Below are positions 11,835 through 64,000 of a DNA stretch of 64,000 nucleotides, piece after piece. Under the pieces are notes generated by a model that was given only the letters and a program-made list of their open reading frames with translations, was not told the DNA's origin and did no database searches. Source of the DNA: Phoronis australis. Lineage: Eukaryota; Animalia; Phoronida. Positions within the stretch are counted from its first letter, which is position 1. Every line of letters starts with the position of its first letter. The translations under genes and the position numbers were made by a program. The stretch covers positions 1-64,000 of the forward strand of contig NMRA01000571.1 in the NCBI GenBank assembly GCA_002633005.1, written 5' to 3'.

Positions 11835-11910
11835 AACGATCGACTTCCGGCTAACTAACCAATCAGAGGTCTTAGCCGTTTGACTAAGCGCAATTGGTAA
11901 AGCCAGTCAA
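11835..11910 (+). promoter_or_regulatory. Candidate promoter of the peptide precursor gene (ETS-like acttccgg, CCAAT boxes)
   Basis: cgacttccgg...ccaatcagagg...attgg, well conserved in copy B at ~28285-28360, about 300 bp upstream of the ATG in A. Confidence 0.35.
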
Positions 11911-30864: not shown

Positions 30865-32084
30865 TGTCGGTAAAATGGTATATGATGAAGGTCTAGAAAG
30901 TGCAAGAATCAGGCGAAAGGTATCAAAGTCTAATTGGTGAAAGAAGACAAGTCGAAGATCTTCAAGATGATGGTGGCGTTCATATCCCGATCCTGAAGTT
31001 GCAGAACGTCCACTCTGTGGATAGCCAGATGTTCAAACGCAATGAAGATATATGAAAAACTACTTCAAAAAAGGAAGCGGAAAGATAAAAGCGGATAACA
31101 AAAAAGCTTTCACCAGGTCGTCTGAAAGAGGTTTGACAATCACATTACTTCTGGTATACGGGACTGATGTTTGTGGGTAAAACTACGAGTTCGTTCGACT
31201 CTGATGTCCATGGTAAAAAGCAGAAAAACATCGCAATAGAATCGAATTAGGATGATGTTTCAGAGCACTTTTAACGAAACGAATTTTTACGGCAAAAAAT
31301 TGAAAACGGCAAAAGAGAATGGGACTCTTCAAAACAACTTCTATTGACATTTCGCAGACTTGCTTCAGTTGTGTTATGTTATCTTTTGTTTAAAGGATAC
31401 CTTAACCGAATTTGATGTTTTTGTTCAAAATTGGTTTAGCCAGATAAAAGCTTATTCAGTTAAAAAAGTTAAATTTGTGTCAAAAAACGAACCTTGTAGT
31501 TCCCTGCACCTGTAACTTATTTAAAATTAACGTGTTTCGGGGTACCATGTTTACCTGTGTCAATCCTCGGTTAACTGTAGACAGGTGTTAAATGAGATAA
31601 CAGAGAAAATGATACGAAACAACACATTGTGAAAAATAAAACATATCTTGCTTCATCACCATTTTAATGAAAGATCAAGACAAATTCACTAAAAATAACT
31701 AATTTTCTACATCTTAACTTACCCAGTTAACGGGGCACTGGCGTTCTTACTGCGGAAAATTTCAATTTTGAATTATTCTTGAATGGTTAGATTTCTTAAA
31801 GTTATAAGCTTTGACCAGAGCTATAAGCTGTAAAAGTTTAGTCTATTGTGTTTCGTGATTTCATTACGAATCACCAGTTCTTTTCTTTGTCGGCCAGGCA
31901 CTTTCCAGTTCTGCTATCCACTGAGTTGAATGCCGCGACGCGTCAGAATTTCTTGCTGAGGCTGATCTCGTCAAAATGATTTTTATTGCCAGTAATGTCA
32001 CTTTAAGTGTCATTCAAGCTTGTGCTTAGAAGACTTTGTTTTAATTTTTGTTACAAACTTCTGAAAGTTGACGAAGAGCGTTGT

Positions 32085-32268
32085 CANGAGCCCCCCCCCC
32101 CCCTCCCCCATTTGGCGAAGTGTGCGTCAGAGAAAAAAGTCCAAAAAGTAGAAAATGAGATAAAAGTACACTGAAAAGGCAGGAATTTGGCGATTTTTTT
32201 TAGTAAAATGTCCACATTCTCAAAAGTTCGAGCCCCCTTCCCAATATTTTAGGTTGGATGCGCGCATG
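32085..32268. mobile_element. Paralogous copy of the 13719 MITE
   Basis: Same internal sequence and right TIR gcgcgcatg; inserted before the duplication. Confidence 0.65.
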
Positions 32269-39295: not shown

Positions 39296-39516
39296 GGCAT
39301 TTCTCACCACGGAAAAATATTACCCCAACCAGACGTTTCGCCTGTTGCTTCTACACTCTGCAGACCTGTACTATCCCAATATCAAAATGAGAACACGACT
39401 ACCGTCACAAAGATCGCAGATAAGACGGTCGCAGACACTTGGTTGGGTAAGTCGTGTATTTCACAAGAGCGAAGTGTCGCAACGTGAATTCGATCATTGA
39501 CCGTAATCACTATAAA

Positions 39517-40438
39517 CTCAAAACCAATACCCCCAATAAAAGAGTAAAGCCCAATGCTACGGGGCAAATTATCCCAGATAAAAAGGTCTACCCGCTGCAT
39601 TGGTCGACCTTTTCCCAACTACTTAGTTCAGTGATAAGTCCACAGTAAGCGATTTAGACATGAAAATTTATTAGCATAATAAATATAAAACAAGTTCACA
39701 ATGATAAGGAATGTACAGTCACTTGGAAAAGACCAACGATACATATGGAGTGGGATTAATTTGAAAAATATGACACTGTTACATCACTCAAAGAAAATAG
39801 TTTCTCCAACCTACATGAAGAACAAGTCTCATAATAACGAGTAGGTTAACAATATGCGCAAGTTGGCCAGAAAACATTTTTCCAGAGTACGGGACATAGT
39901 GTGTGGGTGCTCGGAGAAAATGGGAGTTCCGAATTGCGGAACCTTAGGACTCTTACAAGTTACACTGGACAATAANCTCAAAACCAATACCCCCAATAAA
40001 AGAGTAAAGCCCAATGCTACGGGGCAAATTATCCCAGATAAAAAGGTCTACCCGCTGCGTTGGTCGACCTTTTCCCAACTACTTAGTTCAGTGATAAGTC
40101 CACAGTAAGCTATTTAGACATGAAAATTTATTAGCATAATAAATATAAAACAAGTTCACAATGATAAGGAATGTACAGTCACTTGGAAAAGACCAACGAT
40201 ACATATGGAGTGGGATTAATTTGAAAAATATGACACTGTTACATCACTCAAAGAAAATAGTTTCTCCAACCTACATGAAGAACAAGTCTCATAATAATGA
40301 GTAGGTTAACAATATGCGCAAGTTGGCCAGAAAACATTTTTCCAGAGTACGGGACATAGTGTGTGGGTGCTCGGAGAAAATGGGAGTTCCGAATTGCGGA
40401 ACCTTAGAAGGACTCTTACAAGTTACACTGGACAATAA
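39517..40438. repeat. Near-identical ~460-bp tandem pair joined by a single N (probable assembly artefact)
   Basis: 39517-39975 vs 39977-40438 differ by about three SNPs and a 3-bp indel; N at 39976. Confidence 0.85.
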
Positions 40439-43775: not shown

Positions 43776-46700
43776 CTGCAAAATATTCAGAAAATCACCG
43801 TGACACCTTAGGGTCTTCAGAGTAGACTGAGAAGGATCTTTTAAATATCTGCACTGTGCTGAATGCAGTCTGTCAAGCAGATACAACACTCAACTTCTTC
43901 TTAACACAGCATTTACAGGGGCATTCTTGTTGAACAAGACCAATGAACAGAAATTAGTGACAGTACAGCATCAACCCCACTAACTCCAGTAGCAAACGAA
44001 TGCTGTGCCGCTGAACCAAATACTACGCACTAAACAACAGAGTATTTTAATCGTACTTAAATGGTAAAGACACAGGTCCTGATTTAAGCGAACGTATGGC
44101 AGACAGCGGGAAAACTTATGAATTATTAATAAAATCACAAAAACACTACGTGTTTTGTTTTACAGCTCTGGCCAATGCCGACAACTTCAAGAAGTCCAAT
44201 GATTATCCCTAAATGCATCTCGGGGCCATAAACCACGTCTCCTTTTGATGCAGAAAGACCCCGACACCATTTGTGCAAGTAATGAATAGTTCACACACTT
44301 AGCATTTCCCAATCACAGATAAACAGGGTCCAACTTTAAATGGCTAACAATACAAACTGAAGAGACAAACATAAAAATGCTAAAACAAGAAAGCAACGTT
44401 CATTTTCAAAATAAACACCTTGAACAAATAAGAAAGCAACCACTACATGATAAAGAAATAAAAAAGAATTTGAACGTAGTAACAACACAAACATAAACTA
44501 AACCCAACAAAACACAAGCAAAATGAACAAAATTTCTTTTTGTAAAGTTGAATGTCTTATTCTTAACAATGCTCGATCATCTACAACCCAAAATATTCTG
44601 CCACAGTCTATAGTTGCTAGAGCTAAGACTGCGAGTCAGACAAGTCTGATAAAGACACTTCAACTGAACCACTAATTTCAATGGAATTCAAAATCATCGT
44701 TCACCACACTCATAATAGATTACAGGATGGCAACTGAGAAAAAAACAAACACCAAAACATATTTTGAACAAACGAGCATCGTCAAGACAGAGACCTAGTT
44801 GAGAGCATGCCCACCAGTACCACAAAACTATCACCGCCACCACCGACCGGTTTACTCGTTCTCGTTACTCACGTCGAAATAGTCCTTCTGTTTGTACGGA
44901 GGACTAGACTAAGAGGACAAAAGGGTGGATGAGATGAGAAAACAAAAGACGAGATCGCCACGCATACGAGCACACCGGAAAACCCTAAAATACAGTCCCT
45001 CATCCAGAAAACTTACAGTGTTGGTTAGTACTTCTGTCCAAGACAAAATGAGCGCTGAATTAGCCAGTCAGCAAGGTGAAGGTCATTAAGTCAGAGCAAC
45101 TGAATTGCTTTTACAGGTGACAGTGGGAATTCTAGTGACGATATGCCACAATGTATGTTGGTTTTTGTGTGCAGGGCTTCAGGCCTAAGCGAGTTTAAGC
45201 ATCAAGATAGAAAATCTTCCCTCTTCTGTAAGTTTGGAAACACCCAATTGGTCTATTAAGAAAGGGCCAACCCAAAACCAACCTGTCAGTCAGCAATACA
45301 AGGGCCCGCCCACTTGACAGATTTCCTTATTGGTGAGGACCACAATTCATTAACTTGATTTCAAAAATGTTCTGCACGTAATCAAAATGCAGTCACATTT
45401 TAATAAAACGCACAACTCAAGACAACAACATATTGAGTCAATCCCCCTTGCTGCCAGTCACTGTTTTCAGGCAGAGGAAGCCTGCCCCCTTTCTGTTTTC
45501 ATGTAACCAGTCTTGAACTTTTTTACTTTTTGTACGTAAGTGGCCTAGCCACCCTTCACAGATGACACAAAATGAAATCCCACTCGGGTTTTCCATCTCA
45601 AAAATGCCGAGCTGCACTCCACATTTCATTTGACACGAAGAACGAAACAAGTCCTGCCTACCTTGCTGCCAGTCATCGACTTGATCTTGCCCAACAGGCC
45701 GCCACCCCTCTCCTTGAACTCGACGGCATCAAAGTGGTCATTCTCCTCGTCTTCGCTATCAATACACTGAGGGGGCGCCGGTAGTTCACCATCCTTTCCG
45801 TCGCCACCTGCCACTAACTTCATATATTTGTACTCCAATCTGGAACACACATATCACACTGAAGATGAACAACTGGAGCTTTAGGCCAAAGGGTCAACAG
45901 GAAGATGAAGATGAACTCTTGTTTCAGTTAGAACCATCACCAGTGCTGACACATGGAGTCATTGGATACATTAGACAACATGCAAACCAACCCAAAGTAG
46001 CCAGAAAAATGGTTATTCAAGACAAATATCAAGTGACGACAATTCCTACCCAAGACAACAGTTTTGGCTCCCCCGATCTTCATATCATTTACCCACACGA
46101 GGTGATATCTCGCTACCTGAAAAGAGAACCCACATGGGGCTAAGTGAATCGACACTTAAAGCTACGTAGTCCAACTTACTTCCTATTCTTCTTCCAGCAG
46201 TAGCACAGCGAGATTAAGCAGACGGCGCCGAGGAGGACGACACCGCCGACGATGAGGCCAATGATGATCTTCATCTCATTGGTCAGCGCATCCAGACGGA
46301 GCACCTGGCACTTCTGGTGTGACTCTAAATTCTTGTGATTGCCAGATAACAAGCAGTAGCTGCAACGCAACACAATGACGTTGGATTATGTGTGTGTGAC
46401 AAGCCACAGCCAAGATCTGCCACACGACAATGAACTAATGAGATTGACATATTCAAATAAACTAATGGGAAAATCTCACTAATTTCGGACAAAAATAATC
46501 CAAAATTGTCCCTTTAGCATTTTTTAAGGGCTTCTAACATCGCTGTGAATGGCAACAATTTTTCAAAACTTTGTTTAGCAGCAGCTGTTGAATGAAACCT
46601 GAAGAGAGAATATTATTAATTTTTCTGGCACACGTTTCATGGAAAAAATGACCAAGTAACAATTCACTTATCGGCCATATTGTGTCCCAGTCAGTGAGAC

Positions 46701-49700
46701 TTCACCATAGGCAGACTTCACCAGAGCTCCGCCTAACTTGGCGGCCAAACTTCTTGCCAGAATTATTTAGCAGGTTCAGCTGTAGAATTTTGGTCGTAAT
46801 GAAACAGCATTTTGTCGAATTTCAATGACATGGGCGGCTAACAGTTTTTGGAAGCGAACTTGCGACAAAGCGTGTGAAGCAATACTCGTAGGGATTTTGT
46901 TGAGTTTCGATTCAGTGTGTTTGCCAAAAACAGCATACAAACTGCCTGGTTTAACAGGTGATAAACTTTTGTGTATAAAGATATATTGGCAGCCAATAGA
47001 ATAGTGACCACCTGACTACACTCTCAACCACGTATCAGGTAAGTTGGCTTCCAGCGAACACAAATCCTATTAAGATGTCACCAACTTTCCCACTGACCTA
47101 GAACAGGGCATGGTGGGACATCGGGGATTATCTCCACATGAACTATATGACTAAACCTGAGAACTGGGAAATTGTCTGCCACCAACATATTATCCAGGTC
47201 TGTTGATTGACATGCCAGGGCGATTATAAGGAGACAATGTGATGGGACAAGACATTGGACATCTGGTCAAACACGTGTTATTTTATTTAAAAACTGTATG
47301 ATTGTATCTTTCACTTTAACCAAATGGCAAAATTCATCACTGCTAAGTGCAAACAACTTACACAGGAGCAATGTAGGTGATTTTCTGAAGACCCTTGATA
47401 CACTCGCCTTTGACCTCGCGGTAGTCGGCCTCGCGACATGACGGGCACGCCCAGCGCGTGCGCCACAGAATGTGGAATGTGCAGCCGTCGCACGTGCCAT
47501 CTGGGCACTTGGGTGGCAGCTCCATAGTGCCGTTGCCATCCTCTTTGGGATCACACTGCAGTGTGACCACAGTGGAGCGTCCATTAGGGCAAGCCAGTGT
47601 GGGACTGTAATAACAAAGTAAGGAAGTCAACAAATAGAAATGTGACACTGCAATACAATGTCAGACATGTTACAAAATATCAAATAACCTCCACAACTTA
47701 TGCAGGCCACATGCTGTATTCACATGACAGTATGTGAAGATGACATTATGCAGAAGCGCCCCCTATCCTGTCCCAACATCTTATTCTGTCTGCACCACTT
47801 TCTCACCAGATGGAGGTGTGCACGATGACAATGTATTCAAGAACTGTCCATCAATTCACTATGCTCCCATCACTTCCTCTGCCGACAGAGTTGCATGAAA
47901 CTAATATTTTACAGCACCGCCCCCAACTCCTCCCAACGTCTAACATCACTCAGCTCACTTCCACGCCTGATGCACAGTACCTCCTCTAACTTCCTAATCA
48001 GACATTATCAATTCCACGCAAGTCACTGCCTTACCAATCACAGTTGTGTGCGAAGATGTCGCTCTACAAAACAACCCTTAACCCTTATCCCTACAATTCA
48101 TTAATGCCACCCAAACTCCGCCCACATCACTGCCTCACCAATCAAAGTTGTGTGCGAAGATGTCTTTCTACTTCACAACCCTTAACCCTTTTTCCCTACA
48201 ATTCATTAATGCCATCCAAACTCCGCCCACATCACTGCCCCATCAATCAAACTTGTGTGTGAAAATATCACTAAACAACGTCACTCCAAACATTTTCCAA
48301 CATCTAACTTTGCCCGCATCACTCTGACAGCTAAGAGAACCACGTAAGAAGACATCAGGTTACATGTCCATTCTTAACTCCTCCCAACTCCGCCCACTTC
48401 CCCGCCTCACCTGATGGAGTTGTAGACAAAGTGAATGAAGATGTCATCATCCTTGGTGCGATACTGCAGCTCCTTAATTGTTGCCGTCAGATTCTTATCC
48501 ATGGAAATCTGGGTCAGTGTGTCACCCAGGCTAGAATGGACAAACGTTCAAAACATGTTTAAATTCTCACACATTACGATTCTATTAAAATTTGTACAAA
48601 ATAATTGCAACAAACCACCATGACTTCACTTTCAAGGGCTTACTTTCTTGCCACAAACCATCATGATTTTACAAAGTGCTCTTTTTAGCAGATGAGTAGT
48701 TCGAACAGAGACGTCTATGAAGTTGATAAATTTATATTTCTTTGGTAAAATTAGGCAAAATATTTACTACTCGTTTTAAAAGAATAGAAACTATGTGATG
48801 TTTTATATAAAAATCGAGAACAATGACAATCTGTCACTTTTTATCAAAAAAACGTGGTTAAAGGAAAACATTGCATCATTCAATAAGCTGTATGCAAGAC
48901 AAACCCATAGTACATGTTGGAGTGAAAGTTTGTCAACATACATTTACCATCAAGTTGCCATTCCCACTGATAAAGATGAGCTCTACATCTGACACATCCA
49001 ACACAACAACCAATTGGAATCAATGCAATGGGGTCTCTTTACTGTTCCCAAAGCAATATTTCTTCACTACAGTAACCCTTGAGTTTGGGGCAGTCTCGAA
49101 AATTTGGGACACCGAATCCAAGCCCAAACTCGATTTTCTTGACTGTGATGACTGAGCAGTGAGCTATTTTGTCAATCATAGGGCACTGTGTTTTGTTATG
49201 AAGAGAGTCTGCAGTTTTACTTAGAAGTTCATAAAATTGCTAAGTAGCCACTCACACAACATATCCACGTGTCCCGATAGTGGGCATTGTGGGTTATATC
49301 AGGGTGAATGATTCTTAGTTAACTTGAGATGACCAATATTGGACAATTTCTTAATTTTCATACCAACTCCAACCCTGAGCAAAATAATTAATTTCTCACC
49401 GTCCCAAACTGGAGAAGTATACCAAGGTGAACACCCCAAAAAGAATCCCTGAGCTAGCGTTATTACCTGACTGGCTGTGCCGAGAGGGTCTTGCCACCGG
49501 CTGTCTTTGGCGGTATGACTGTGGAACGGCAGACCATAGCCTCAACCACATTATCCATGTCCCAGGACTGTAATATTATGGGTCACATTTGAACAGGTAA
49601 GATAGACACCGTAAAAAGTCTTCAACACAAAAGAACACATACTTCACTGTTACAGTTTTTGATAGCATTCATACACTGAGCATTTACACCGAAACTACAA

Positions 49701-52700
49701 AATCCCCAAATGGGATTTTAAGCTGAACAAAACTGAACATGGGTGTATAAAGAGTGAAGCATTTGAAAATTCAGTGTGGCTGTTAACCCCTAAACATCAG
49801 CAACCGATTAGCCTAAAAACTTGCCTGACATTTCAGTATTGTTGATACAGCATTTAATTAGAGAGAAATCTATATACAACAAAAAAATGCAGTAACCATA
49901 AATTTGTAAAAAATAAGCTCCAGAACGTTCTGGAGCAAGCAAACGACTAACTAATGAAAAACAAAAATTATAATTGTCATTAAACAGAAAACAAGATTTG
50001 CAATCCCTTCCAATAGGGTAAAATTGCACCAATTTCCGACAACACCATTCTCCAAAATAGCTCAAAATTTCATTGTAAGGGCCTCTTACACTGCTGTAAA
50101 TGTCCACAGCTTTTCAAAATATTATTTGTTGGTAGCAAGGTTACTGAACTGAAATATTACAAAATATGATTTAAAAAAAAAAATAGAACAAATGTTCACT
50201 TGTCCACCACATGGTATCTTGAATTGGTGACATTTATATATCTTATCATAATGTGAGTAATCATATAACATATGGCCACAGCCCGCTTACAACATGTACA
50301 TACGAATAGATGGCAGACCCCCTCCCACCATACCCTCCCACAGGGACCCTATGTCTTACCATCTTGGTCAAGTTGTGTACACAGCGTACGGGGGCCGGCC
50401 CCTGCGAGCTGCACACCATTAAGTTGATCACATGCGCATACTGCGCAAAGAGCACATTGGACTCGTCAAAAATCATGCGACTGAGAACAGCGTGCGACCT
50501 AGCAGGGCCCGAGAAATAGACGGACAGAAACACGTTAGTGGGTTGATAGCCACCAGACAAGGACAGCTCCCAAGCTATGAAGTACAGACATGGGGAACAA
50601 CGCCTACGAAATGCATGCCTGGGGTCAAACAAGGTTTAAACAAAAAGAAAAAATGTCTTGCGCATGACCATTCACAAGAAGCAAGCTAAGTATTGGCATG
50701 TTTTGGACACAAATTATTGGATGGAAAACAATCATGTCCAGTACAGTATTGCCTTCCTTCTCATTGAAGAAATAGTAAAAACTTTTTCCTCCCAGGTTCC
50801 TTTCTTTTTCAGATCAATTCTTGCAAAAAAGGTGACAGCAACAAACTGTCGAGAACCCATACTATGCCACAAAATTTGTTTGGGACTAATTTTTACTTAA
50901 GTGGCAGTGTGTAGACAACCATGTCAATTAGCCAAAACATCATACTTGCGTCAGCATGACAGTAATTCACAATACTGCAAAATGCTCATGCGCAACAGAC
51001 ACCTAAACAAAGGGGCATATCATTCTTTCACACAACCCTTAATGCACATTACAAAACAGGTTACTCCACTGCACAAAATAATCTTAGGTATTTGGAAACC
51101 AATGAGTTTAAATACCAAGCGTCTTCAACATAGTGCCATTTTGTATAACGGTCTCCGATGCAGATTACGTTTGTTGGCAGAAAAAAATTGCTTTTATTGC
51201 AAGAAACACAGTAATCACTTACAGTGGCACCATATTTTGAGGACCAAATTTCTTCACTAAATGACAGGCATTAGAGGGGCGGCTCTAAGCAACTACTACC
51301 AGAACAATTTTCAGATACCTCTGATAGTGCTAATCAGCTTATTCTAAAAATGTTACATTCAGGACTGCTATGGGAGGAAATGCACCTTTAAATAAAGACA
51401 ACAAATTAAGGCTGTAAAGAAAATGAACACGGTACCAGAAACAGGTGAAAGAAAACAACACAACAAAGCAAGAAACAAATAAGAAAACAAAAAACAAAAA
51501 TGGGTTAGTAAAAGCTGAAACTAAGAGAAAAAAAAACTGTTAGTAAAGCATGCCTACAAAGACCAAACAGTCCTAATAGCTGAATGTTTGCATATGTGCG
51601 CATTTTATGCCTGCAACAAAACGTTCGATTTGATACTAGTGTCACAGAAAGAAAACTGAAGACAAACCACTAAGCTTGCACCATAAAACATTACATGGGG
51701 TGTAAATGATGGAGCACGTCCCACAAACCAATAGTGTGGACAGTATTTTGAACATTACAACCCGCTTTCTTCCCAATCCAATAGCAATTTGCACTACCCG
51801 CCTTTCAAACAGAGACTGCACATCATGGTGAAGCAAGTATATCCATCTCATGCAGTTAGTTCAGGAGAAACCTGGTATCCTGCAGGGAATACTTTTCACG
51901 TTTCTCAGACAACCAATGAAAATGCGTCAAAACTCCTGGCAAACGGAGATCGACGATCACACAGTCGACTACATTTAACTTTAAAAACAGAGAAGAGAAA
52001 ACAACCATTTAGTTGTCTAATTCGATTTCACCCTGATCAGGCTGTAAAGATTTTTTATTCATTCATTGTCGGTGAACTTGTATGGAGAAAAGCCAGATTT
52101 TGGCAACATCATCATACAGTCAAGAAAAAGCCACATCCATGAATGATGAAATACTATCTTGCCTAGATCACCTCTATAAGGTACGAGGAACAAACTGCCA
52201 TTAGCCAACCACCACCAACAAAAAGCCTGACCCATCCCAAATTGCCATGGTAACTACCTCAGACTCTCCATCAATGACGCCCTGTTAAATGAGGTTAAAG
52301 GTTAGGGGGTCACCGCATGTAATACCATGAAACACATGCAGGTGATGGTTAATGGTTTAACCAAGCAGTGTGTTAAACATGGGTCACAGAAATGAGGTTA
52401 TGGCTATGATTTTGTCAAAGACAGAACGCTTGCAATTCAAAGGCGTTAAAATTAAGGTAGATCTGATCAGACAGTTGATTACTGAGGTCCGTCAACACAA
52501 ACATGTGGAGACATTTAGTAGGCCTTTTATACCGGACATTCAGGTGATAGAAATAGACTTGCTGGAACGTGGGACTGCATTACTATTCCCTAGCCAACTA
52601 AGTAAAAGACATGCTTATGTCACTTACAGAGATCCACATTTTGAGAAGCAGTTTTCTCCACCGAATAACTGGCATGAAACTGATTCTGAAAATCTAGGTC

Positions 52701-55700
52701 CCTGGGCTATGGCCCACAACACCAAAGGCCAGTTCACAAGCGACTGCCAACACACGAGTCATAATTCCTCTGTTGTTTCAAAAGTACTGGATGATGAATA
52801 CCGATCTTACAAATCTCGGGAATGTATTCCGTAGAGCCATGAATTGGGCGAAATCACACAAAATCACGGACGAAAAGGCAAGTGTCGCGATTAAGTTGGC
52901 GACCGTAATTAAGCTAACACGAGAAAAATTTCCGCCTGTGAAGTTACTGACTACCACAAGATTGGAATGAAGAATTATTGGAGAGAATTCAATTGCTGTC
53001 TCAGAGTTCTCATTGCAAGTTTATTATGCAAATGTCTTGGGTTACGGAAAGCACTCTAGCTTGATATTTGTACAAGTCATCACTTAGCCTAACTAAATGG
53101 ATAAATTCAGTTGACTAAGAGACGGTAATATGCAAGCAATTCCGTCAGTAACTATAGGCCTTTGGTATAAGGACATCGATGAAACATTTTTGTACAGAGA
53201 ACCAGGTGAAACTACCTCCATCTGTTGAAGAGTGATGTTGTTCTGGCACGTGGCGTGCGATTGGCTAGCCGCGGGACACAGGAGAAGCTGGAAGTTGTGG
53301 AGGTACTGCGTACCGCTGGACGTGAACAGGAACCCGCCGCTGACATCGTGAACTCTGTGGGGGGCGTGGAAGAGAGAGTGTGTGTGGATGAATATGAGAT
53401 AAAACTGAACATCATTATGTAGCACTCTTCATGTAAGAAGGCCCATGAAGCTTTGGTAGACATGTAAAAGCTAAAGAAAGGCAAAACGAGATGCTATTTT
53501 ATAGTACAAAAGGGAGTTCGGAATCCACTAGGTGACGCTTGTGAGCCAATGTTGACAATTTACGTTCCTCTGAAACATAAAGAGCAACTTCTGCTTTTCG
53601 AGGTGAACGTTGTCTGCAACGCCGCGGTAAGAAAGGAATTTGTTGCGGAAATTTTATATCAAATCCGATTTTTTTACGCAGAAATATAATAAAATGCGCG
53701 GACAGAACATTTGAAAAAAGTGGAAATCCGCGTTTCCGCGGAAAATTCCAAGCCCTGAACAGGAGAATTTTTGCTGCAGTGCTACCTCGTAAACACAAAC
53801 TTTCCCGACAAAACAGCCTAAAAATAAGACAGAGTAAAAGTCAATTTCAACACGTCGACAGGACTACAAAAGAAATGGCCTGAAAACATGTCTTACTAAC
53901 AGTAACCAGATATTAACATAAATATTCAGGGCCTCGTTTCACGAAAAGTGATATAAGACTTGAGTCGGAAATTTAGTCTTACGCTCTCAATTTGCTATTA
54001 CTGGCTGCAACTTAATATTTTTAAAGGCTATCATTAGTACATCACACTTTAGCATCAAGATTTCAAGATTATTGTAATGTTTAGACTTTAGAGTAATTAT
54101 GGGTACATTCTCAAAGACATTGTACTTTTTACTCAAGTGAGATTAGCTAATTCAGTTGTGTTAACCACAAGACCAAATGCCTGATTAAGTCTTACATCAT
54201 TTTTCATGAAATGGGTGCATGACGATCTTTTATTAACAGACGATTACAACAGACTGCCAGTATTACAACTGAAATTAATATTAATGTCTTTTGTCATTTA
54301 CTGATCAGGGACTACAACTACATCTGCTACAGCCCAGAAAAAATGATGGGATTTGAACCCACTCTTTCACAGATAGAATAAAATAATGTAAACAAGAGAC
54401 TTACTAGCTCTGTCAATGACAGATAAATGCATATATATTTTCCAAGATATTTGATATATCGGTAAAAGTTATCATTTAGTAAACCAAAAAATATCAAACC
54501 TATTGTTTAGACATGGGAAGCAGCAGTCCAGAAATGTTTGAAGGGGTGACAAATTTATCAATCGGTTTAATCTTGAGCCTGCTAAAAACTGACAGATGAG
54601 CAAACCTTACACAAAAAATCCATTCAGTGTTTTTATTGACTGTCTTACCCAGATAAGCTTGTGAAGTTGAACTGCTTGCCGTCGGCACCAGTATAGAGAC
54701 AATCGCTATAGCAGGTCTTGTGGTCGTCCGTCTTGAGTCCCTCGCCGCAGGGCTGGCAAGACTCGCGGCCAAACGCGTGGTTACTGTTGATGACTGTGTT
54801 AGGAGGGCACTGTACACAGCTCATAGACTCACTGCTGATGTACTGGCCGTCAGGACAGGGGACACAACTGTGGAGTAGGCAGGGGAGACAATTAGCTAGG
54901 TGGTGTAGTTTTGACCAAACATAGTAAAGTGTGAAGGGTTCGCAGGAGATAATCAACACTTCAGCAGATGACAAACACAGTTCCTTGACTGACTCTTAAT
55001 GGAGTGCCATTCTGGAAAATAAACACAACTGAGGACTAGACAGGCAACAGAGAGGTTTCAAGCTCGCTCTCTTCCGTGACCAACTGCTAACATGGATGAC
55101 AATCCCCAAATAATAAAGGAACCAATGAGTGAGGGTAAAAAATTGAGTCTCACTGTTCTTCACAGAGAATATCTCCACTCAATCATTCCTGCTGGATTTT
55201 AATACCGAATATTGAAAAAACCACAAGCTGTCACGTCACAAACCTTCTTCCCTTGTTGCGATTTCCCCAGCAACATTGTTGGAGAACTCACCCGTCAGCG
55301 TCGCTGGTTCGCGGACACTGCACGCATTCAGCAGCTCCACCTGTCAGCGTGTTTGTGATGTTGATGGAGTAGATACGAGCAACGTCACCTGTCCGCTTGT
55401 ACTGCACCTTGCCGTCACGGAAGGCGCTGTCGAAGGTAGTCTTCTGGAAGGCCCACGAAAACGAGACAGGCTCTGTCTTGGTGATGATGGCTCTGAGAAT
55501 GAACAAAGATCACGAGGTGGAGAAGAGGTAACATGAAATATCACCCATTTGGGACACAATATGGCTGACAAATGAAATTCTTTTTCTCATTTTTTCCAAG
55601 AAAGATATGTAACGCGTACATCCAATGCAAACATTAAGCAACCCTGCCAGCCTTATAAACAGGCAAAAACAGGACAACTGAAACTGAGTTTCATACTGAA

Positions 55701-58700
55701 AAGGATTCCTTTAATAGGTAAATGCAACACAAGCTAATGTACAACTATTATTAGAAAGTCAAGCTGATGTACATTTGATGTTAACTGTACTCACAACCAG
55801 CGACGTCACTCCAGATAAAATGCATCTATGGCAGCGACGTGTGCATAAATATTCCCAGAAACAATACCCGCATAAAGTCTCTTGTGCTGCCACCTGGAGG
55901 GAAGTCGTAGGAGCGGAACGTTATCTCAGATAATAGTAGATAGAGATAGCCGGTAAGGGCCATTTACTCACGTGTACTGCTGTTTGGATCTTTTACCCTG
56001 CCACGCCTTGATCACAGAGGCTCCCATGCTGCGCGACTCCTGCAACAACCAGTACAGTTAAGCCACACATAGCCAACATTGGGACGGCTTGTTATGAACA
56101 AGACACTGATTGCACAATATTATTACTAAACAAAATAAAGTTTAAAAAATTTATAAACCTTTAAAAGGGAGACTAACTGTTTGTTGAAATTCTAAGAATG
56201 ATTTCTCAAAACCTTGGCGGACATCAATGTTTAATAAAGGTTTACATAATAGCAAAGATTATATAAATCAAACAATGACGCCAAGAGAAGCCGGTGTTGT
56301 TAACTGAATCAAATCCCTAAGCAATGATCAAAAATGATGGGCAGAGTGTCCCTGAGACGGTACACAAATTTTCTTATTAGAAAACAACCACCATAGTCCT
56401 GTTCCCAAACATAAAAGTCGAAGATAACGGCTGCATAGAAAAACTATGAGCATTACATGTTCTTTATTGTGTGTACATCCTATGCAAACATTAAGCAACC
56501 CTGCCACCCTTATAAACATGCACAAACAGGACATCAGAACCCATTCCATAAGGAACTCATACTGAGAAGGATTTCTATTGGGTAACTGCATCACATCCAT
56601 TGAAACACAGGAATGAAGTGATTCAGTTATGAGAGTCAACCCAAAACAAATGTAGAACAAGTGTTAGAGGCAAACACTGACGGCAAATTGACGTATTCAT
56701 GACAATTTCTGCCCGTTAACAAGTTGGTCTGGATCAATCTGCACTTTCTTCTCAAAAGCAACAGACTTGTGCTGCCAAGGATTTCCCGCGTTTACACTAA
56801 CGACTTCTCCAGAGCAAATTGTTGCTGGAACAACTTGCGTCCGGTTTTTATACAGTGGAAATGGCATACAACGCAGTCAAGTAAATTTGTGTATGTTGAA
56901 AATATATTCCTGTCCAAACAATACACCGATAACACAGACAATGCAGAGCTACGTAATGATGCTAGATGACAGTACATTTGCCAAAAAAACTAAAACAGCC
57001 AAGTAACGAAGCCGACAAAAACACGTTGAGCAATGTCAAACATGGCAATTTAACCACGCATTACTTAAAGAGCGCTACAAAAAGAAAGCCAAATCCCTCC
57101 GCCCAGAACAAAACTACCTTGCTGTGGTGAGTCTGTGCATTGGATAAAAAACAAATGGCAAACGATAAAGGGTCATAACATCGGGACTGCGTTCACATAA
57201 GCAAATCTATTGTGCCTAAGGCGAGGTCACTCAAGATATTCCAAGTCTAAGGCAAAACGTTGTCCCTGTTTAACTTGATACCTGATATTTCTTTTATGGA
57301 AAATGTGGACAGCAATATGGATGTTAAATTATGAGAGTGGATCAAGAAATCATCAACAACGGACTGTTGGTACCCTACTCTCATGTTATAACATTCCAAG
57401 GCACTGCTTTAGTGAACGTGCCCCAAGCGGTAACTTAAAAACACAATGAACAAGAACAAGGCGATTAGTTGTAAAAATAAATTGTCACACACAAGAGAGG
57501 TGTTAAGGGTCTCATTAATAACAAAAAGTGACCTGGTCACATGTGGATAGTCAGCTACCGGATGAGCAAGCATGCAGCTTTCATGCGGAGAAGGATCCCT
57601 GGTAGTGCACAGAAAAATCTAGTTACCCGAAACCATAGAAAAGTGACTAACAACAAACAAGGAACAAAACCTATAAGCAAAATCAACAATTTATTGATCC
57701 ATTGGCAGCTGTCAATCTCATGACAGCATTTCCTTTCAGGATTGTGTGCACAGCCAGTCTTTTGTTACAGCTGGCTAGGTCCATTAGGTCATTGTGTTCT
57801 GGTCACTACAGAGCATTATCTGATGTTACCAGGCATGGCTTCAACCACTCTCTTCCCTGATACCTGGCTAGAGTGATGGGGCAGGCTCACTAATGGACCT
57901 GACTAATCAAATCATTACTTTTTATTCGATTCAGATGGCTCAAACAGTATCCCACTTGCTCCACAATTTTTGTAATATTTACAGCTTGTCACAGGAACTT
58001 GATTACACGACAATAGATTCATAGGTACACGCAGGTCATCTCCATTGGAAATGCATCAGGAACGAGAGAAGACAAAAGAAGATTAAAGCAATACAAGTAA
58101 GAAGTAATCCAGAACAAGAGAAGCCTTTCAAACACTTTGTCAGAGAGAACAACAGAAAACAATGCACCAGAAAACAAACTGCACACATGGGCTAGAACTT
58201 TACGGAACTCGAGGAAGCCGTTCACAGAAAAAATACAGGGAACAGTTGAGACAGATCAGAGAAATGGCAATCCATTCTGCTGCGAAAACAAAACAACATC
58301 CAACTCCTCTCCCCCGCCCAGGACATGCAAAACTGCCTTAACCATAACCAGTCTCCTGCAAGCCTAAATACTTCAAAACCTTTTTTACCTTCTTGTGCTT
58401 CTGTTAAACATGACAAGTTGACATTGTTAGTAAGTTATACGCATATATAGAGAACAGAAGAGTTAGCAAAAGCAAAACTGTCCCCGTTTCGAGAGCAGAA
58501 AAAATTCTCCAGTTTGGGGGTCACAATGAAAAACTTAACTTTGTAGAAGATTGAAATTTATACTGAATTGGGCAATATTGGCCGTTCCAAAATAAAAAAA
58601 TTACAAAAACAACAGTAACATTATATAATTCTGAAATTATGGAGGTAATGCAATATTACGGTGCCCGCTACACATTTCCGTTTAATTTGTGATTATACTT

Positions 58701-61700
58701 TGAAACACCTGACCAGTCAAGACTGATTATAGTTGACAGTGTCTGAATATTAGACCCGGACGATACAAAATGCAATGTCCCATATTTGATAAAACAAGAA
58801 TGACAAATGGAAAAATCGCCCATGTTCTAATATTTTTGACACAAGAAAATTTAATTCCAACTTTTGTGTTCCACATTAAAAGACCCCAAGTGGAGGGCTC
58901 TTATTGTAGTAAGACGGGCTTCCAAAGACGAATGGACTACAACCCCATTCTCAACAACCCAACATGGCAAATCTACGTTTCTTTAATTTTGGGTGACAAA
59001 ACCAAGTTTATTTGGTATTAATTTAATTACTTAATGTCTAGTCGTTAAGCAATTTGAAAGTTAGTTAAAGAAAATGAAAAAGTATCTTTGGACAATACAA
59101 ATTAAAGCAAAAATTGAGCTCAAGTGACACGATCTATGGTTTATGAAAGTTTCAACAGCATGAACTTTGCATTGATTTTCAGTTCTCTCCATTTTTCCAC
59201 TTTCTCTTAAACAAAGCTCAGAAAAAGAAAAACAGAATTTGCTACTTTACAAATTGGAAATGTGGACTTTCACTGTTGTCAAAACGGAATCCTTTGCTTT
59301 TGAAAATAAAAAGGAGAATTATGGTCTCAAAGTTCCAGGAAATAAAAAAACAGGAACATTATATCAACACTAGAGGCACATAACACCAACCTGCATAAAG
59401 TACATCTGACACGCTGTGTCGTCATCTGCGTTCTCAGCGCAGTCGAGCTCGAACACAAATGTGATGCGGGCGATCTCGACAGGCTTGCCATGGAAAATGC
59501 CCTCCCGTCCCTGGAAGCCGTCCACGTCCAAGAGGAGGATGAGGTAGGCATCATCGGCGTGACCTACGCCCGTGTGAATGTGGTCGTTGGCAGGCTGCCA
59601 GCCATTCTTGGTACTACACCCCGTGTCTAGAACGGCGAGAACCACAGTCATTTCAATTTGTGACACGAAACCAGACACAAAAATGACATTTTTCCACCCA
59701 TCTCCTGAGCCACTCAAAACTGCCATTCAGTTACAGCATGGGAACATACGTATTTACTTTAATTTTGTATCCAATTCTTTATTTCGCGGACTTTTAAAAC
59801 AATGCCACTGAAGGATGACACATGCGCAGCATTTAATTTTTGACGTTATACAAAAAAATGACTTAATATTTATTCACAATCGGATTTCAAACACGTTTTC
59901 ATTAATCGAAATTAATGAAAATGACCACCACACATTTGAAGGGTGGAAAACCACGTACACGATAGTGTAAATGTCAACCAAATCACATACAATTCTCCGA
60001 TTCACAAACAAAACAACAGCTCACTAATAATTAGGACAAAATGTTTGCTTATGAATAAAACACCAGGGTCAGGGTTATAGTGTCATCACCTTTTTTCTTT
60101 CCCCGATTCCATGACTTAAATTCTCACAGTTTTGCAAACAAATATAACAAAGTTCAAAATGCATAAACTAGCGATAAGACTTGCAAAAATCATGATACTA
60201 AGTTATCACCATATGAAAATTTCTGTGAATCTTCAAAAAAGGAATTTCTATGCATGAACATTGGTTCTGCCAAATCCCCAGTTTTCCCAATTTTCTGCAA
60301 GGAGCAGGAATGAGCGTTACCCCAATACTCACCATCGGTAGATATACAGCTGGCGGTCATGTTGGGTGGCATTGTATTCCACCATTTGTAAACTAGGCCT
60401 GTCTTGGGGGCGGAGTTGACCGGACATGGCTGACAGGCCTCCCGCCCTGAAATAAGATTGACAGGCGGAGATTAAAAACATGAATGCAGCCATATCATTT
60501 AACAACAGATTATACAATACAGGCAAATTTAAAGCAGATACTGCAAAAAAAAAATGGTTATCACAAAATTGAAAGCAATCTCAAATCAACTGACCCCATT
60601 TATTTCACAAGTCGGGGTAATCTTCAGGGGTCGAACCGACAAACCAGAGTTGAAATCTTTCATGTTGTAACATACCAATCGAAAGAAAACTTACTCATGG
60701 ATTGGACATTCCAAAATAATAAAATAATTATTTCATCGAAATAAGACTTTATGTTTACACCTGACAAGAGGTCTTTCAGTACTGAAAAACCAGCCGCACA
60801 CACATTATACGATAAATTGAGAAACCCAGAAACGTGAACCGACTATCGATAGCATGTATTCGTTCTCACTTTACCGTACAAATTGACATAGCAACCTACC
60901 TTTCATTTATCTAACTTTGTTTAATGTGAAAAGTTTCTATCATGCTTGAATGAAACATAGTTTGTGATTCAAATTTCTGTTTTTCAGGTTTCAAATAGGA
61001 GATCTGTAGTTCACTACAGTGCCTAACCACAAGGTAGCGTGTGTTAGACCTTCATTAAATAAGCAAAACCAATGGCGCCCTTTGACCTTACCATCGGAGA
61101 ATGTGTTCTTGGGACAGAACTGACACGACTGCTGAGTGTAGTGCATGCCGGGGTTACACGGTGGACACTCCTCCTTGACACCAGAGGCCGGCAGTTTCGC
61201 GGAGCCCGCCACGTCAGTGCGACACAGCTTGTGCTCCGCCCACTTGTACATCTTCTGTGTCTGTGGAGAAATGGCATGAGTGTAACGATTTGGAATCGCA
61301 AAAGAGCAATCATCCGACATCACGGACAAATGTCCAACAAAAAATGGAAACAAAGATTTGAATTCCACTATTGGAAGCGAAAATTTGGCATGTACAATAA
61401 CAGCCCCCGATACTATCAGTTTTACATATTAGAAGTATAACAGAAGATTCAGATGACACAGCAACTAGCCCACATCAGAAACTGACAGGTCAAGGGAGCA
61501 AGTGCATCATATAGCATTAATTCATCGTTCAAATTGTGGCTGTTTAACCATTTTACAACAGCTTACCATAAATACAGAGAAGCACTAAAACCTAATACTG
61601 GACTTACACTTCAACTGAGCAATGTTGCTTCCTCATCGCGAGGACTTGCACTAATTAATGACGTGGTGGCGTTTGGCTGACGGTGTGATCTGCACGGAAT

Positions 61701-63777
61701 GAAGCGCAGTGAGTGATCCCACATCATATTACACCATCAGCTGAACCCACCATGGAATTAGCTGGTGAAAGTCTTCACGATGAGGGTGCAACGCAGCTTA
61801 GTCAAAATGTAAATCAGTATTAGGCCTTTGTTTCTATATTATCAACTGGATGTCTAATATTCACCAATTTATTCACCAATTCAGCTTAATTCAAACTTAT
61901 ACTATTTATCACATATAGTAGAGAAAGGTTACAGTGAACATCAAATAAAATACTGTTTACAGTAAGAGAGACACTTTATATATAATTGATTGAGTCAGCC
62001 TACTTTCAAAAATTCTACTTTGCTTAAAATCAATTTAAAAAATGATTTTTAATATGGGAAGCTAATTTTCACATGGTCACCCAGTGAATCAAGTGGAGTT
62101 TATCCACAACTCCTGAGGCTAGATGAGGCGCTGTGAACTTGCAGTGGGTACTTTTGACTTGACATATATTGTTGTGAGCAATTTTCACATGGTCTACTAC
62201 CTATAATTGGCTACAATACAATTATAGCAGTCACCACTGCATGTTAAACAACCATTTAACCAAAACGAGTCATCCACAACATCAGACATACAGGGAGGGA
62301 CAAAAAAATGTTACCCGTTCTGACTTCATATATACTTAAATTTTCTGCTTTTTTAAAATGTATCACAGAAGCATGAAAGTTTTGATTGATAACGACAATC
62401 TCTCATCTTGTCACAATTTGGGATCCATTTACTAATTATTGACACTAATCTGTATCACTAAATGATTACTCCGTGACAACACTGCACAGAAACTATAGAC
62501 ACCAAGAGAATAAACTACACGCTCAAGATTTAGCCTGGGCCAAGAATCTCATTTTCTGCCCAATAACGTAAAAATGTACCTCATAAGCAAAAAAGCTCCT
62601 ATCCAAAGAACTGAGTAACAATTTTTGACCCACCCTGTATCATGAAATTACCATACCTGGTTGTTTTCATCACAGGCAGTCAGGTATCCAAAGTAGTCGT
62701 TGCTGGTACATGCAGGACGATCAGTGCATTCGGACGCTCCCTGGCCTAATAACAGTTGAAACAATTAATGACAAAATAGGCATCTTTTAACCTGGTGCAT
62801 GCCATAGACCAAATTCCTTGTTACTGACGTATAAGTCAAATAACAAATGATGGTGCTGGAAATTAAATGCTTATCACGTCAATAACCGTCCTTCAAAAAT
62901 CACGCGTAACAAAATGCAATTTCATGATGAACAACAAATATCAGATGGGATGAGTGCTTTTTGTCTCACGGGATGTTTTTTGTCACAAGGGACGTGTTTT
63001 TGTCACCTGGGACGTGCATTTTTGAAAGCTATCTACAGTTAATTAAAACAATTATTTTGGGAAATTTTACATTGAAATGAGATCACAATTACAAATTCTA
63101 TCGAGTGCACGCGCTTTTCAAAGAACTGGCTAAAATTTTTTTTGAGACTTGAAAAATGCTTTAACGGTAAAAATTCATATTTATCCATACACCATTCCAC
63201 AAATATTAACATGTTATTTGCAAACTAAAAAGACAGTGGAATAATACACATTTAGGTTTGTCATATCAAATTTAATAACTGGGTGTTCGCAACATGGCGA
63301 CAAGTTGACTCAATGCACTTAAAGTCTTCTATTATTGTGACCTTTGCACTCAAAATTCCAACATTTTTATGAGAATTAATAAATCACTATAATCTAAATA
63401 TTAATTTTCATCATAGTTAGAACACAAGTGGTGAAAATCAAAAGCAAGTGTACAGTGAACATTATACACCAGTGGTGCATAAGTGCTTTAAATAATAGAA
63501 GACAAACCCTAAAAATGGCATGAAAAGCACTGTCAGTAAATTATAGATAAACTGAATTCAAAGAGATGTTCAGTTCTAGAGAAAAAAACAAAGTTACCCT
63601 CTTGCTTCTATGCCCGCTCGCGCTTACCGGAGTACTGTGTCTTTACGTCACAGGGTTTGCACTTGCCGGCTCCCCCAGGTGAATACGTGTTTTTGGGACA
63701 GTCCTGGCAGTCAGCTGAGCCCTCGCTACTGTATGTGCCTGGCAGACATTTGGTGCACTCGGATGTGAAGGCAACAC
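43716..63777 (-). CDS. ELAPOR: ELAPOR1/2 (KIAA1324-like, UPF0577) type-I membrane protein; multi-exon, 5' part lies beyond the window
   Basis: GT-AG exons join in frame and follow the vertebrate ELAPOR sequence: GVAFTSEC, KLPASG, YKWWNT, ARITFVFE, FSWAFQK, DGTCDGC (MRH domain), TM, WKKNRKLEYKY. Confidence 0.95.
44873..44908 (-). CDS. ELAPOR: Putative 36-nt cassette exon (SSPPYKQKDYFD)
   Basis: Strong pyrimidine tract with ttag acceptor, gtgagt donor, phase 0-0. Confidence 0.65.
45662..45839 (-). CDS. ELAPOR: ELAPOR cytoplasmic exon (LEYKYMKLV...LLGKIKSMTGSK)
   Basis: 178 nt, phase 2-0. Confidence 0.92.
46180..46359 (-). CDS. ELAPOR: ELAPOR transmembrane exon
   Basis: 180 nt, IIIGLIVGGVVLLGAVCLISLCYCWKKNR. 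Confidence 0.93.
47362..47604 (-). CDS. ELAPOR: ELAPOR exon (CPNGRST...DGTCDGCTFHILW...ACPSC)
   Basis: 243 nt, phase 2-2. Confidence 0.93.
48024..48262. repeat. Intronic ~105-bp tandem repeat (about 2.3 copies)
   Basis: cactgcc..accaatca.agttgtgtgcgaagatgtc...caacccttaaccctt...ccaaactccgcccacat recurs. Confidence 0.8.
48411..48530 (-). CDS. ELAPOR: ELAPOR exon (LGDTLTQI...IHFVYNS)
   Basis: 120 nt, phase 2-2. Confidence 0.9.
49467..49567 (-). CDS. ELAPOR: ELAPOR exon (VEAMVCRSTVIPP...SAQPV)
   Basis: 101 nt, phase 0-2. Confidence 0.9.
50360..50498 (-). CDS. ELAPOR: ELAPOR exon variant b, putative mutually exclusive paralog (SHAVLSRMIFDES...QYAHVINLMVC...CVHNLTKM)
   Basis: 139 nt, phase 2-0, ctag acceptor, atg|gtaaga donor, open frame, homologous to variant a. 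Confidence 0.75.
52258..52281 (-). CDS. ELAPOR: Putative 24-nt ELAPOR micro-exon (GVIDGESE)
   Basis: ctaac branch point, pyrimidine tract, aacag acceptor, gag|gtagtt donor, phase 0-0. Confidence 0.6.
53216..53354 (-). CDS. ELAPOR: ELAPOR exon variant a (VHDVSGGFLFTSSGTQYLHNFQLLLC...CQNNITLQQME)
   Basis: 139 nt, phase 2-0; matches the vertebrate GGPSFTSKGLKYFHHF segment. Confidence 0.9.
53929..54218. mobile_element. Intronic MITE (PIF/Harbinger-like ends)
   Basis: ggcctcgtttcacgaaaagtgatataagactt / aagtcttacatcatttttcatgaaatgggtgc; related end at ~7830-7865. Confidence 0.6.
54649..54867 (-). CDS. ELAPOR: ELAPOR exon (CVPCPDGQYI...FNFTSLS)
   Basis: 219 nt, phase 2-2. Confidence 0.92.
55292..55492 (-). 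CDS. ELAPOR: ELAPOR exon (FSWAFQK...DVARIYSINITN)
   Basis: 201 nt, phase 2-2. Confidence 0.92.
55972..56039 (-). CDS. ELAPOR: ELAPOR exon (ESRSMGASVIKAWQGKRSKQQY)
   Basis: 68 nt, phase 0-2. Confidence 0.88.
59391..59626 (-). CDS. ELAPOR: ELAPOR exon (GWQPANDHI...ARITFVFE...YFMQ)
   Basis: 236 nt, phase 1-0. Confidence 0.92.
60333..60446 (-). CDS. ELAPOR: ELAPOR exon (CQPCP...YKWWNTMPPNM)
   Basis: 114 nt, phase 1-1. Confidence 0.92.
61092..61260 (-). CDS. ELAPOR: ELAPOR exon (TQKMYKW...KLPASG...CPPCNPG)
   Basis: 169 nt, phase 0-1. Confidence 0.92.
61631..61785. other. Intronic long imperfect foldback (old MITE or structured RNA)
   Basis: Nested inverted segments cctcatcgcgaggactt/aagtcttcacgatgagg, ctaatt/aattag, gctgacggtgtgat/attacaccatcagc. 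Confidence 0.6.
62657..62745 (-). CDS. ELAPOR: ELAPOR exon (GASECTDRPACTSNDYF...ACDENNQ)
   Basis: 89 nt, phase 1-0. Confidence 0.9.
63628..63777 (-). CDS. ELAPOR: ELAPOR exon (GVAFTSECTKCLPG...TQYS)
   Basis: 150 nt, phase 1-1, cag/gtaagc. Confidence 0.92.
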
Positions 63778-64000
63778 CTGTAAACACAGAAGGTGGTAGT
63801 TCATTTTCATCAACTTTGTGAAAGCATTTGACAAGATTACGGTTGAATTGCACTATAGTGATAGCCACATTGCTATGGACGACCACACAGGTATCGATGT
63901 TTAAAATGACTATAGGCCATTCATTTACTTGAATAAGTTGAGTTCGACTTTAAGCAACAACAATTTCTCAGTTCTTTCCATTATGCTCAGAAATCACTTT

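What the first reader, a model, noticed from the sequence alone, without database searches (positions are those of the whole stretch)
50360..53354. Hidden mutually exclusive exon pair in the ELAPOR luminal MRH-region
Seen: exons 53216-53354 and 50360-50498 are both exactly 139 nt with phase 2-0, so direct inclusion of both shifts the frame. They align as VHDVSGGFLFTSS---GTQYLHNFQLLLC-9aa-CQNNIT vs SHAVLSRMIFDESNVLFAQYAHVINLMVC-9aa-CVHNLT, keeping H, F, QYxH, both Cys with the same spacing and the N-x-T sequon despite little remaining DNA similarity. Inference: an ancient exon duplication kept by selection, swapping the start of the mannose-6-phosphate-receptor-homology region and perhaps cargo specificity. 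I know of no such splicing in vertebrate ELAPOR1/2.
Basis: partly seen in the sequence, partly recalled or inferred. Interest (0 to 1): 0.8.

Follow-up and report, generated by a model that had tools for sequence, protein, structure and literature searches.

The report
ELAPOR duplicated exon plus hidden microexon
An invertebrate vesicle-trafficking gene (ELAPOR) carries an old, intact second copy of one exon that would swap part of its predicted sugar-binding domain but was not seen spliced in four RNA data sets, which instead show an overlooked 24-base optional exon in a loop that related animals also vary.

Summary
Exons A (53216-53354) and B (50360-50498, minus strand) are both 139 nt, AG/GT, phase 2-0, and homologous (0 of 10,000 shuffles; a profile built from relatives alone ranks B second of 2,922 window segments). 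B looks coding: GC3 0.72, reached by 0 of 13,705 intron windows, with saturated silent sites. It keeps both cysteines, the glycan sequon and the His that I map to mouse ELAPOR1 H693. Mutually exclusive splicing is not shown. Three RNA runs gave 20/19/22 reads joining the upstream exon to A and no listed B junction; B depth equals intron background. None of 83 homologous proteins covering the region is B-type, but the nearest are only about 52% identical, so conservation is untested. The reads revealed an in-frame 24-nt microexon (52258-52281) in about a third of transcripts, in a flexible loop where 6 of 7 spiralian protein clusters also have optional inserts. Best reading: a rare or tissue-restricted tandem-duplicated-exon substitution (0.62), a known class not reported for ELAPOR in my searches. 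Altered cargo specificity is speculation.

The parts
45662..63777 (-). 3' part of an ELAPOR1/2-family gene: 14 AG/GT exons (with A) joining into 735 stop-free codons; 5' exons lie beyond the window, last coding exon not resolved
   Evidence: exon chain, 42-52% identity to 17 homologues; family profile on six frames; PF23031, PF23087, PF23089; read junctions for 45839-55972
54649..54867 (-). Upstream constitutive exon U (Cys-rich repeat and start of the MRH domain), ends in phase 2
53216..53354 (-). Exon A, 139 nt, phase 2-0, family-typical copy; the only copy seen spliced
   Evidence: (20/19/22 reads U-A; 7/7/23 reads A-D)
52258..52281 (-). Optional in-frame 24-nt microexon m (GVIDGESE), phase 0-0, between A and D
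   Evidence: (A-m 5/6/11 reads, m-D 5/4/9 reads)
52282..52401 (-). Acceptor region of m: 120-nt AG-free zone (longest of 16 acceptors), CTAAC at -24, TGC at -36, TGCATG at 52340-52335
50360..50498 (-). Exon B, 139 nt, phase 2-0, diverged duplicate of A with coding-type codon use; CTAAC at -40, TAG acceptor, GTAAGA donor; not seen spliced
50313..50350 (-). G-rich stretch just after the B donor (fits a four-G-run pattern); can pair on paper with the acceptor tracts of A (53349-53383) and of m; statistically weak
49467..49567 (-). Downstream constitutive exon D, starts in phase 0

Best explanation
Exon B is an old, intact tandem duplicate of exon A of an invertebrate ELAPOR gene that is likely spliced in place of A in a tissue, stage or condition missing from the RNA runs examined, while a 24-nt microexon after A is optionally included in those runs. 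Shown: homology, matching phases, coding-type codon use, frameshift and stop on double inclusion or double skipping, use of A, optional use of the microexon. Inferred: (1) A is the default because it is transcribed 2.7 kb earlier and has the strongest pyrimidine tract of the 16 acceptors; (2) B is switched on by a regulated factor, as its CTAAC branch point and TGC next to the acceptor suggest; (3) exclusivity is enforced by loss of the frameshifted A+B product to nonsense-mediated decay, not by steric or spliceosome incompatibility; (4) the B protein would keep the beta-barrel core, two cysteines, the conserved His and the glycan, but replace the family-conserved FTxxG hairpin loop and most surface residues, so changing what the luminal MRH domain touches; (5) the microexon lengthens the flexible loop after the glycan site.
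For: Homology. Coding signature: GC at codon positions 0.52/0.37/0.72 in the A-like frame against 0.51/0.47/0.69 for 588 constitutive codons; 0 of 13,705 intron windows reach B's GC3; 0 of 888 stop-free and 3 of 13,705 of all intron windows reach its synonymous-codon score. Age: 3 of 12 identical residues use the same codon; B scores 53 against its own A and up to 69 against other species' segments, and keeps the family Asn that A has lost. B keeps 7 of 12 family-invariant columns, with Phe>Ile and Leu>Val at two more. A's His19 and Asn39 align to His674 and Asn694 of PDB 9vqm_A, which I map to H693 and the glycosylated N717 of PMC12337314 section 7. AlphaFold model of the Owenia homologue: the A-equivalent covers strands 674-677, 688-695, 706-708; loop 712-729 has pLDDT<50. 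No other exon of the gene part in the window has an intronic duplicate. The A-to-D introns carry more sense-strand reads (about 2-5x) than other introns (0-2.6x), as expected where splicing is slow or regulated. One contig of run X1 ends exactly at the first base of the intron after B (50359), a weak hint that the B donor is cut.
Against: No junction into or out of B reached the listing threshold (3 reads from 2 starts) in X2, X3, X4 or X1, against 61 U-A reads and 55 reads into D; at most 2 reads a run would be under about 10%. Depth over B (1.6-7) equals the flanking intron; X1 has no contig on B. 0 of 83 homologous proteins that cover the region are B-type; B alone finds nothing among 5.8 billion proteins (A alone also finds nothing, so this test is weak), one spurious repeat-protein hit among 1.84 billion representatives, nothing above 0.78 in the ESM Atlas, and no B-like segment in 5 metagenome loci. 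B loses Thr, Gly and Tyr that at least 90% of homologues keep and has a 3-residue insertion. The B isoform was not folded.
Confidence: 0.62

Rival explanations
1. B was a working alternative exon for a long time but has recently fallen silent; it is now a pseudo-exon too young to have decayed.
For: No B junction and no excess depth in 4 of 4 runs; loss of family-invariant Thr, Gly, Tyr; no B-type protein among 83 homologues.
Against: Frame, both splice sites, branch-point motif and exon-like GC3 are all intact in a species whose introns differ by several percent between individuals (7 differences in 187 nt right after B), so silence would have to be very recent; only 2 studies of unknown tissue were read, at 18-19% of each raw run.
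Confidence: 0.2
2. B is used, but not as a full swap: either after A as a poison exon that sends the mRNA to decay, or as a terminal exon that reads 32 codons on into the intron and gives a secreted ectodomain without membrane anchor.
For: A+B stops 10 codons into B; B's frame stays open to 50264; sense reads and an X1 contig (50173-50359) cover the intron after B; decay would hide such transcripts.
Against: B's codon bias is in the U-B frame, not the A-B frame (scores 0.27 against -0.53); a phase-0 GTAAGA donor matching A's is kept; A's frame also runs 40 codons into its intron, so read-through length is not special; no A-B or U-B junction listed and no read pile-up end.
Confidence: 0.11
3. 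B is reached through the microexon (U-m-B-D), which is also free of stops, so that m serves in two reading frames.
For: U-m-B-D is open over 281 codons.
Against: All listed m junctions join A and D; a 24-nt stretch is often open in a second frame by chance.
Confidence: 0.05
4. B is a chance look-alike in an intron or an assembly artefact.
For: No Pfam or PDB match for B alone.
Against: 0 of 10,000 shuffles, second of 2,922 segments, GC3 above all 13,705 intron windows; too diverged from A to be a haplotype copy; reads from other individuals lie across the stretch.
Confidence: 0.02

Closest known systems
Tandem duplicated exon substitutions (homologous mutually exclusive exons; 236 events in 214 human genes, PMC9741552, passages seen)
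   Same: Two homologous internal exons in tandem with equal phases, giving proteins that differ in one homologous stretch of a domain; described as old and mostly tissue-specific, with differences on the surface.
   Different: Here the second isoform is predicted only. ELAPOR/KIAA1324 occurs 0 times in the human catalogue (supplementary table of PMC8373072; control TPM1 27 times). An optional microexon lies between the two copies.
Oyster alternative oxidase CvAOX exon 10 duplication (PMC5589949, abstract seen)
   Same: Spiralian, lineage-level duplicate; one copy family-typical, the other with new residues near functional sites; the minor copy rises under stress.
   Different: Terminal exon, both forms found in all organs; here internal and the second form unseen.
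coq-2 mutually exclusive exons (PMC7434440, search listing only)
   Same: An invertebrate exon swap that changes substrate choice, the kind of effect proposed for B.
   Different: Function and splicing shown there; neither shown here.
eMIC/SRRM4-dependent microexons (PMC8797185, passages seen)
   Same: m is 24 nt, in frame, with a long AG-free zone, CUAAY branch point, UGC upstream and a donor lacking +5 G.
   Different: Neural specificity and eMIC dependence untested; UGC is at -36, not close to the acceptor; pyrimidine tract not unusually rich.
Mouse ELAPOR1 (cryo-EM 9vqm/9vql; PMC12337314, abstract, passages and section 7 seen)
   Same: Same family and fold; exon A/B covers the His and the glycan site mapped to H693 and N717.
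   Different: Q736 is Arg here; M6P binding is only suggested even for mouse; the copper-dependent tethering site is N-terminal, outside this exon and outside the window.

Membership tests
Tandem duplicated exon substitution / homologous MXE | Two homologous exons in tandem in one gene | tested here: met
Tandem duplicated exon substitution / homologous MXE | Same phases; each alone keeps the frame | tested here: met
Tandem duplicated exon substitution / homologous MXE | Both exons are spliced into mRNA | tested here: inconclusive
   A yes (61 U-A reads); B below threshold in 4 of 4 runs of unknown tissue, 18-19% of each raw run read
Tandem duplicated exon substitution / homologous MXE | Never both in one transcript | tested here: inconclusive
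   no A-B or m-B junction listed, but no B junction at all; double inclusion gives a stop
Tandem duplicated exon substitution / homologous MXE | Both copies conserved in related species | not testable with these tools
   no genome held; nearest annotated homologues about 52% identical; 0 of 83 B-type
Tandem duplicated exon substitution / homologous MXE | Peptide evidence for both isoforms | not testable with these tools
   no proteomics tool
Docking-site/selector RNA-pairing MXE | Competing long-range base pairing specific to the exons and conserved | tested here: inconclusive
   A acceptor with G-rich stretch after B: -40.5 kcal/mol, 142 of 2,000 and 31 of 2,000 shuffles reach it; m acceptor -41.8, constitutive U acceptor -36.4; 1 of 7 queries; no covariation data
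Microexon | At most 27-30 nt, in frame, optionally spliced | tested here: met
   24 nt; included and skipped forms in 3 of 3 raw-read runs
eMIC-dependent neural microexon | Long AG-free zone, CUAAY, UGC near the acceptor | tested here: inconclusive
   AG-free zone 120 (longest of 16), CTAAC -24, TGC -36
eMIC-dependent neural microexon | Neural-specific inclusion that depends on SRRM/eMIC | not testable with these tools
   tissues of the runs are not given
ELAPOR1/2 (KIAA1324/EIG121) | Luminal GBD/MAM, Cys-rich and MRH domains, one membrane helix, short tail | tested here: met
   for the part inside the window
M6P-binding MRH domain | Ligand residues (H693, Q736, S803, R808 in mouse ELAPOR1) kept | tested here: not met
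   His and Arg kept; Gln is Arg and Ser is Ala in this gene by alignment through Owenia; mapping inferred

The most novel reading that the evidence does not exclude
The MRH domain of spiralian ELAPOR is a splicing-tuned module: A, A plus microexon, and a cell-type-restricted B form rebuild the surface around its ligand pocket and so change what this vesicle tether or sorting receptor binds, with the switch to B set by a G-rich element after B that folds back onto the acceptors of A and of the microexon.
Probability: 0.15. Interest if true: 0.7.

Novelty: new member of a known kind. Interest (0 to 1): 0.42.

Why it matters
What the ELAPOR MRH domain binds is open even in mouse, where M6P binding is only suggested from structure. 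A natural swap that keeps the core and replaces the conserved hairpin loop would be a ready-made pair of variants for finding the ligand surface. The read-supported microexon, with optional inserts at the same loop in cephalopod, snail and other spiralian proteins, marks that loop as a recurring regulatory site that I did not find described. The class of event is well known and B is unproven, which limits the score.

Tried and rejected
No whole genome was held. No RNA holder was listed by indexed words; the raw-read runs came by species label. Searches with A or B alone among longer proteins found nothing; shorter and near lengths were not searched. The single representative hit P0098 is a 4,813-residue repeat protein with no QYxH or Cys pattern at the match: rejected. 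ESM Atlas: best 0.78, no lead. Metagenome scan: 5 loci of 66 pattern matches; L001 has only about 0.9 kb after the exon, L002-L004 are intron-poor genes with no B-like segment, L005 is a partial 16-residue match. RNA pairing as the exclusion mechanism: first looked strong (0 of 40 shuffles) but fell to 142 of 2,000 and is largely a C-rich against G-rich composition effect; kept as a lead only. Steric exclusion rejected: A and B are 2.7 kb apart. U2/U12 incompatibility unlikely: all donors are ordinary GT. Inverted repeats in 49467-54867 gave nothing clearly above chance. No Rfam match in 44000-64000. Scan for further microexons between A and D gave one weak candidate (50554-50574) without reads and missed m itself because of its strict acceptor pattern, so it is not exhaustive. 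Earlier findings: none. Literature searches that found no report of this splicing; supplements of bioRxiv 10.64898/2026.09.05.749416 were not seen and might list ELAPOR exons. The B isoform was not folded, so its fit to the fold rests on alignment.
Full report
Observation. Exons A (53216-53354) and B (50360-50498) lie on the minus strand, are 139 nt each, have (C/T)AG acceptors and GT donors and are open in the same frame. With the upstream exon U (54649-54867) and the downstream exon D (49467-49567), U-A-D and U-B-D are free of stops, while U-A-B stops ten codons into B and U-D also stops. The two peptides share 12 residues; 0 of 10,000 shuffles reach their global score, while 29 of 1,000 DNA shuffles reach the DNA score. 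A profile made only from 32 homologue segments ranks A first (53.6 bits) and B second (18.1 bits, E 2.3e-4) of 2,922 stop-to-stop segments of the window, the third at 7.2 bits.

The gene. Fourteen AG/GT exons from 63777 to 45662 join into 735 stop-free codons of an ELAPOR1/2-family protein, 42-52% identical to 17 homologues; the tree leaves it in an unresolved position beside Owenia, P0001 and molluscs, so a spiralian host is likely. Pfam places A at positions 25-62 of the 203-position MRH model PF23087. B is the only intronic duplicate that the family profile finds in this part of the gene.

Is B under constraint? Its GC content by codon position is 0.52/0.37/0.72, like the 588 constitutive codons (0.51/0.47/0.69); none of 13,705 intron windows of 46 codons reaches its GC3, and 0 of 888 stop-free windows (3 of all 13,705) reach its synonymous-codon score; the bias is in the A-like frame only. 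Silent sites are saturated (3 of 12 identical residues share a codon), B is no closer to its own A (score 53) than to other species' segments (up to 69), and it keeps a family Asn that A has lost. A copy that had drifted neutrally to 28% identity would not be expected to keep frame, phases, splice sites and codon bias (inference). B keeps 7 of 12 family-invariant columns, changes two conservatively and loses Thr, Gly and Tyr, with a three-residue insertion in the FTxxG loop.

Is B spliced? Four runs of the same species label were laid twice: three raw-read RNA runs of one study, 18-19% of each read, and one contig set. In one search all joints of 49350-54950 are listed. U-A has 20, 19 and 22 reads; A-D 7, 7 and 23. 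No joint touching B reaches the threshold of 3 reads from 2 starts, which bounds B at under about 10% in these samples. Depth over B (1.6-7) equals the flanking intron, and X1 has no contig on B. Against that, the tissues are unknown; the A-to-D introns carry about 2-5x sense-strand depth against 0-2.6x in other introns; and one X1 contig (50173-50359) ends on the first intron base after B, which an excised intron would give but a polymorphism could too (my rough chance estimate is a few percent).

What the reads do show. A 24-nt exon m at 52258-52281 is joined to A by 5, 6 and 11 reads and to D by 5, 4 and 9 reads: 18 of 55 reads into D, about a third. It adds eight residues in frame. Its acceptor has the longest AG-free zone of 16 acceptors (120 nt), CTAAC at -24, TGC at -36 and one of the gene's 7 TGCATG motifs (recalled as the Rbfox site). 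Long AG-free zones, CUAAY and UGC mark eMIC-dependent exons (PMC8797185, passage); the match is partial. Among 10 protein clusters looked up, isoform pairs with and without a short insert at this same junction occur in clusters 1, 2 (cuttlefish), 3 (octopus), 4, 5 (Biomphalaria) and 10, that is 6 of 7 spiralian clusters, and in none of the tick and coral clusters; cluster 1 has six different inserts. The inserts differ in sequence, so a shared origin is not shown. These are gene models and transcript assemblies; I did not see their exon structure.

Conservation of B. Of 97 stored proteins 83 cover the region and all are A-type. B alone found nothing among 5.8 billion proteins, but neither did A; one spurious hit among 1.84 billion representatives; no lead in the ESM Atlas; no B-like segment in five metagenome loci. 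With the nearest annotated relatives at about 52% identity and no genome held, this says that B is not a widespread annotated isoform, not that congeners lack it.

Structure. The family has a cryo-EM structure. Section 7 of PMC12337314 names H693, Q736, S803 and R808 as putative M6P residues and N717 as a seen glycan. Counting along the alignment, the glycan numbers fit chain 9vqm_A at an offset of 23 and the four ligand residues at an offset of 19, so the mapping is my inference; Fig. S5F was not seen. On it, His19 of A and its match in B are H693, and the N-x-T sequon of both is N717. Q736 is Arg in exon D and in most invertebrates, so classical M6P binding is doubtful here. An AlphaFold model of the Owenia homologue (28 sequences, mean pLDDT 70.5) puts the A-equivalent on strands 674-677, 688-695 and 706-708 and the microexon site in a loop with pLDDT under 50. 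B would therefore keep the core and change a hairpin loop and surface; m would lengthen a flexible loop. The B isoform itself was not folded.

Mechanism of choice. The 2.7 kb between A and B rules out steric exclusion, and all donors are ordinary GT. Frameshift with decay of A+B is the simplest safeguard (established knowledge, inferred here). A G-rich stretch after B (50313-50350) can pair with A's acceptor tract: 0 of 40 shuffles in a first pass over 7 queries, but 142 of 2,000 and 31 of 2,000 on retest, with m's acceptor (-41.8) and U's (-36.4) pairing about as well as A's (-40.5). It is a lead, not a result.

Comparison and verdict. This works like a tandem duplicated exon substitution (PMC9741552, passages); membership awaits proof that B is spliced. 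ELAPOR/KIAA1324 is absent from the human catalogue (PMC8373072 supplement), and seven literature searches showed no report of such splicing or of the microexon loop. A spiralian precedent with a stress-induced minor copy exists in oyster AOX (PMC5589949, abstract). Best explanation: rare or tissue-restricted swap, 0.62; recently silenced, 0.20; poison or terminal use, 0.11; via m, 0.05; chance, 0.02. New member of a known kind; interest 0.42.

Noticed in passing
window 52258-52281 (-): Read-supported optional 24-nt microexon; optional inserts at the same loop in 6 of 7 spiralian ELAPOR clusters.
   Followed up: yes
window 53216 and 52258; 54649 and 50360 (-): The donors of A and m share GAG|GTAGTT (no +5 G); the donors of U and B share GTAAGACA. 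May hint at duplication history or be chance.
   Followed up: no
window 54649-49467 (-): The path U-m-B-D is also free of stops, reading m in a second frame; no reads.
   Followed up: partly
window 50173-50359: An X1 contig at exon-like depth (14.3) ends exactly at the B donor; X1 has several intronic contigs between A and D and almost none in other introns.
   Followed up: partly
window 53547-53760: Intronic interspersed repeat with RNA depth of 200-400, strand-biased, reads running off both ends; no Rfam match. Smaller repeats near 46500, 49400, 52650, 55600.
   Followed up: partly
window 5532-16179 and 21274-34459: Large decayed direct duplication (65-88% identical blocks); the second copy holds a reverse-transcriptase fragment at 25753-26790 (-), Pfam RVT_1 E 2e-16; likely old retroelements (1 of 40 segments scanned matched Pfam).
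   Followed up: partly
window 39509-40438: Tandem 470-bp duplication at 98% identity with an N at 39976; possibly an assembly artefact.
   Followed up: no
window 48010-48269: Short tandem repeat of about 104 bp in the intron between exons at 48411 and 47604.
   Followed up: no
window about 44850-44910 (-): Candidate last coding exon with two AG acceptors 5 nt apart that would give different C-terminal tails; outside the stretch laid with reads.
   Followed up: no
L002 7169-11197: A nearly complete, intron-poor ELAPOR gene on a metagenome contig, with a long insertion after the VCxS motif.
   Followed up: no
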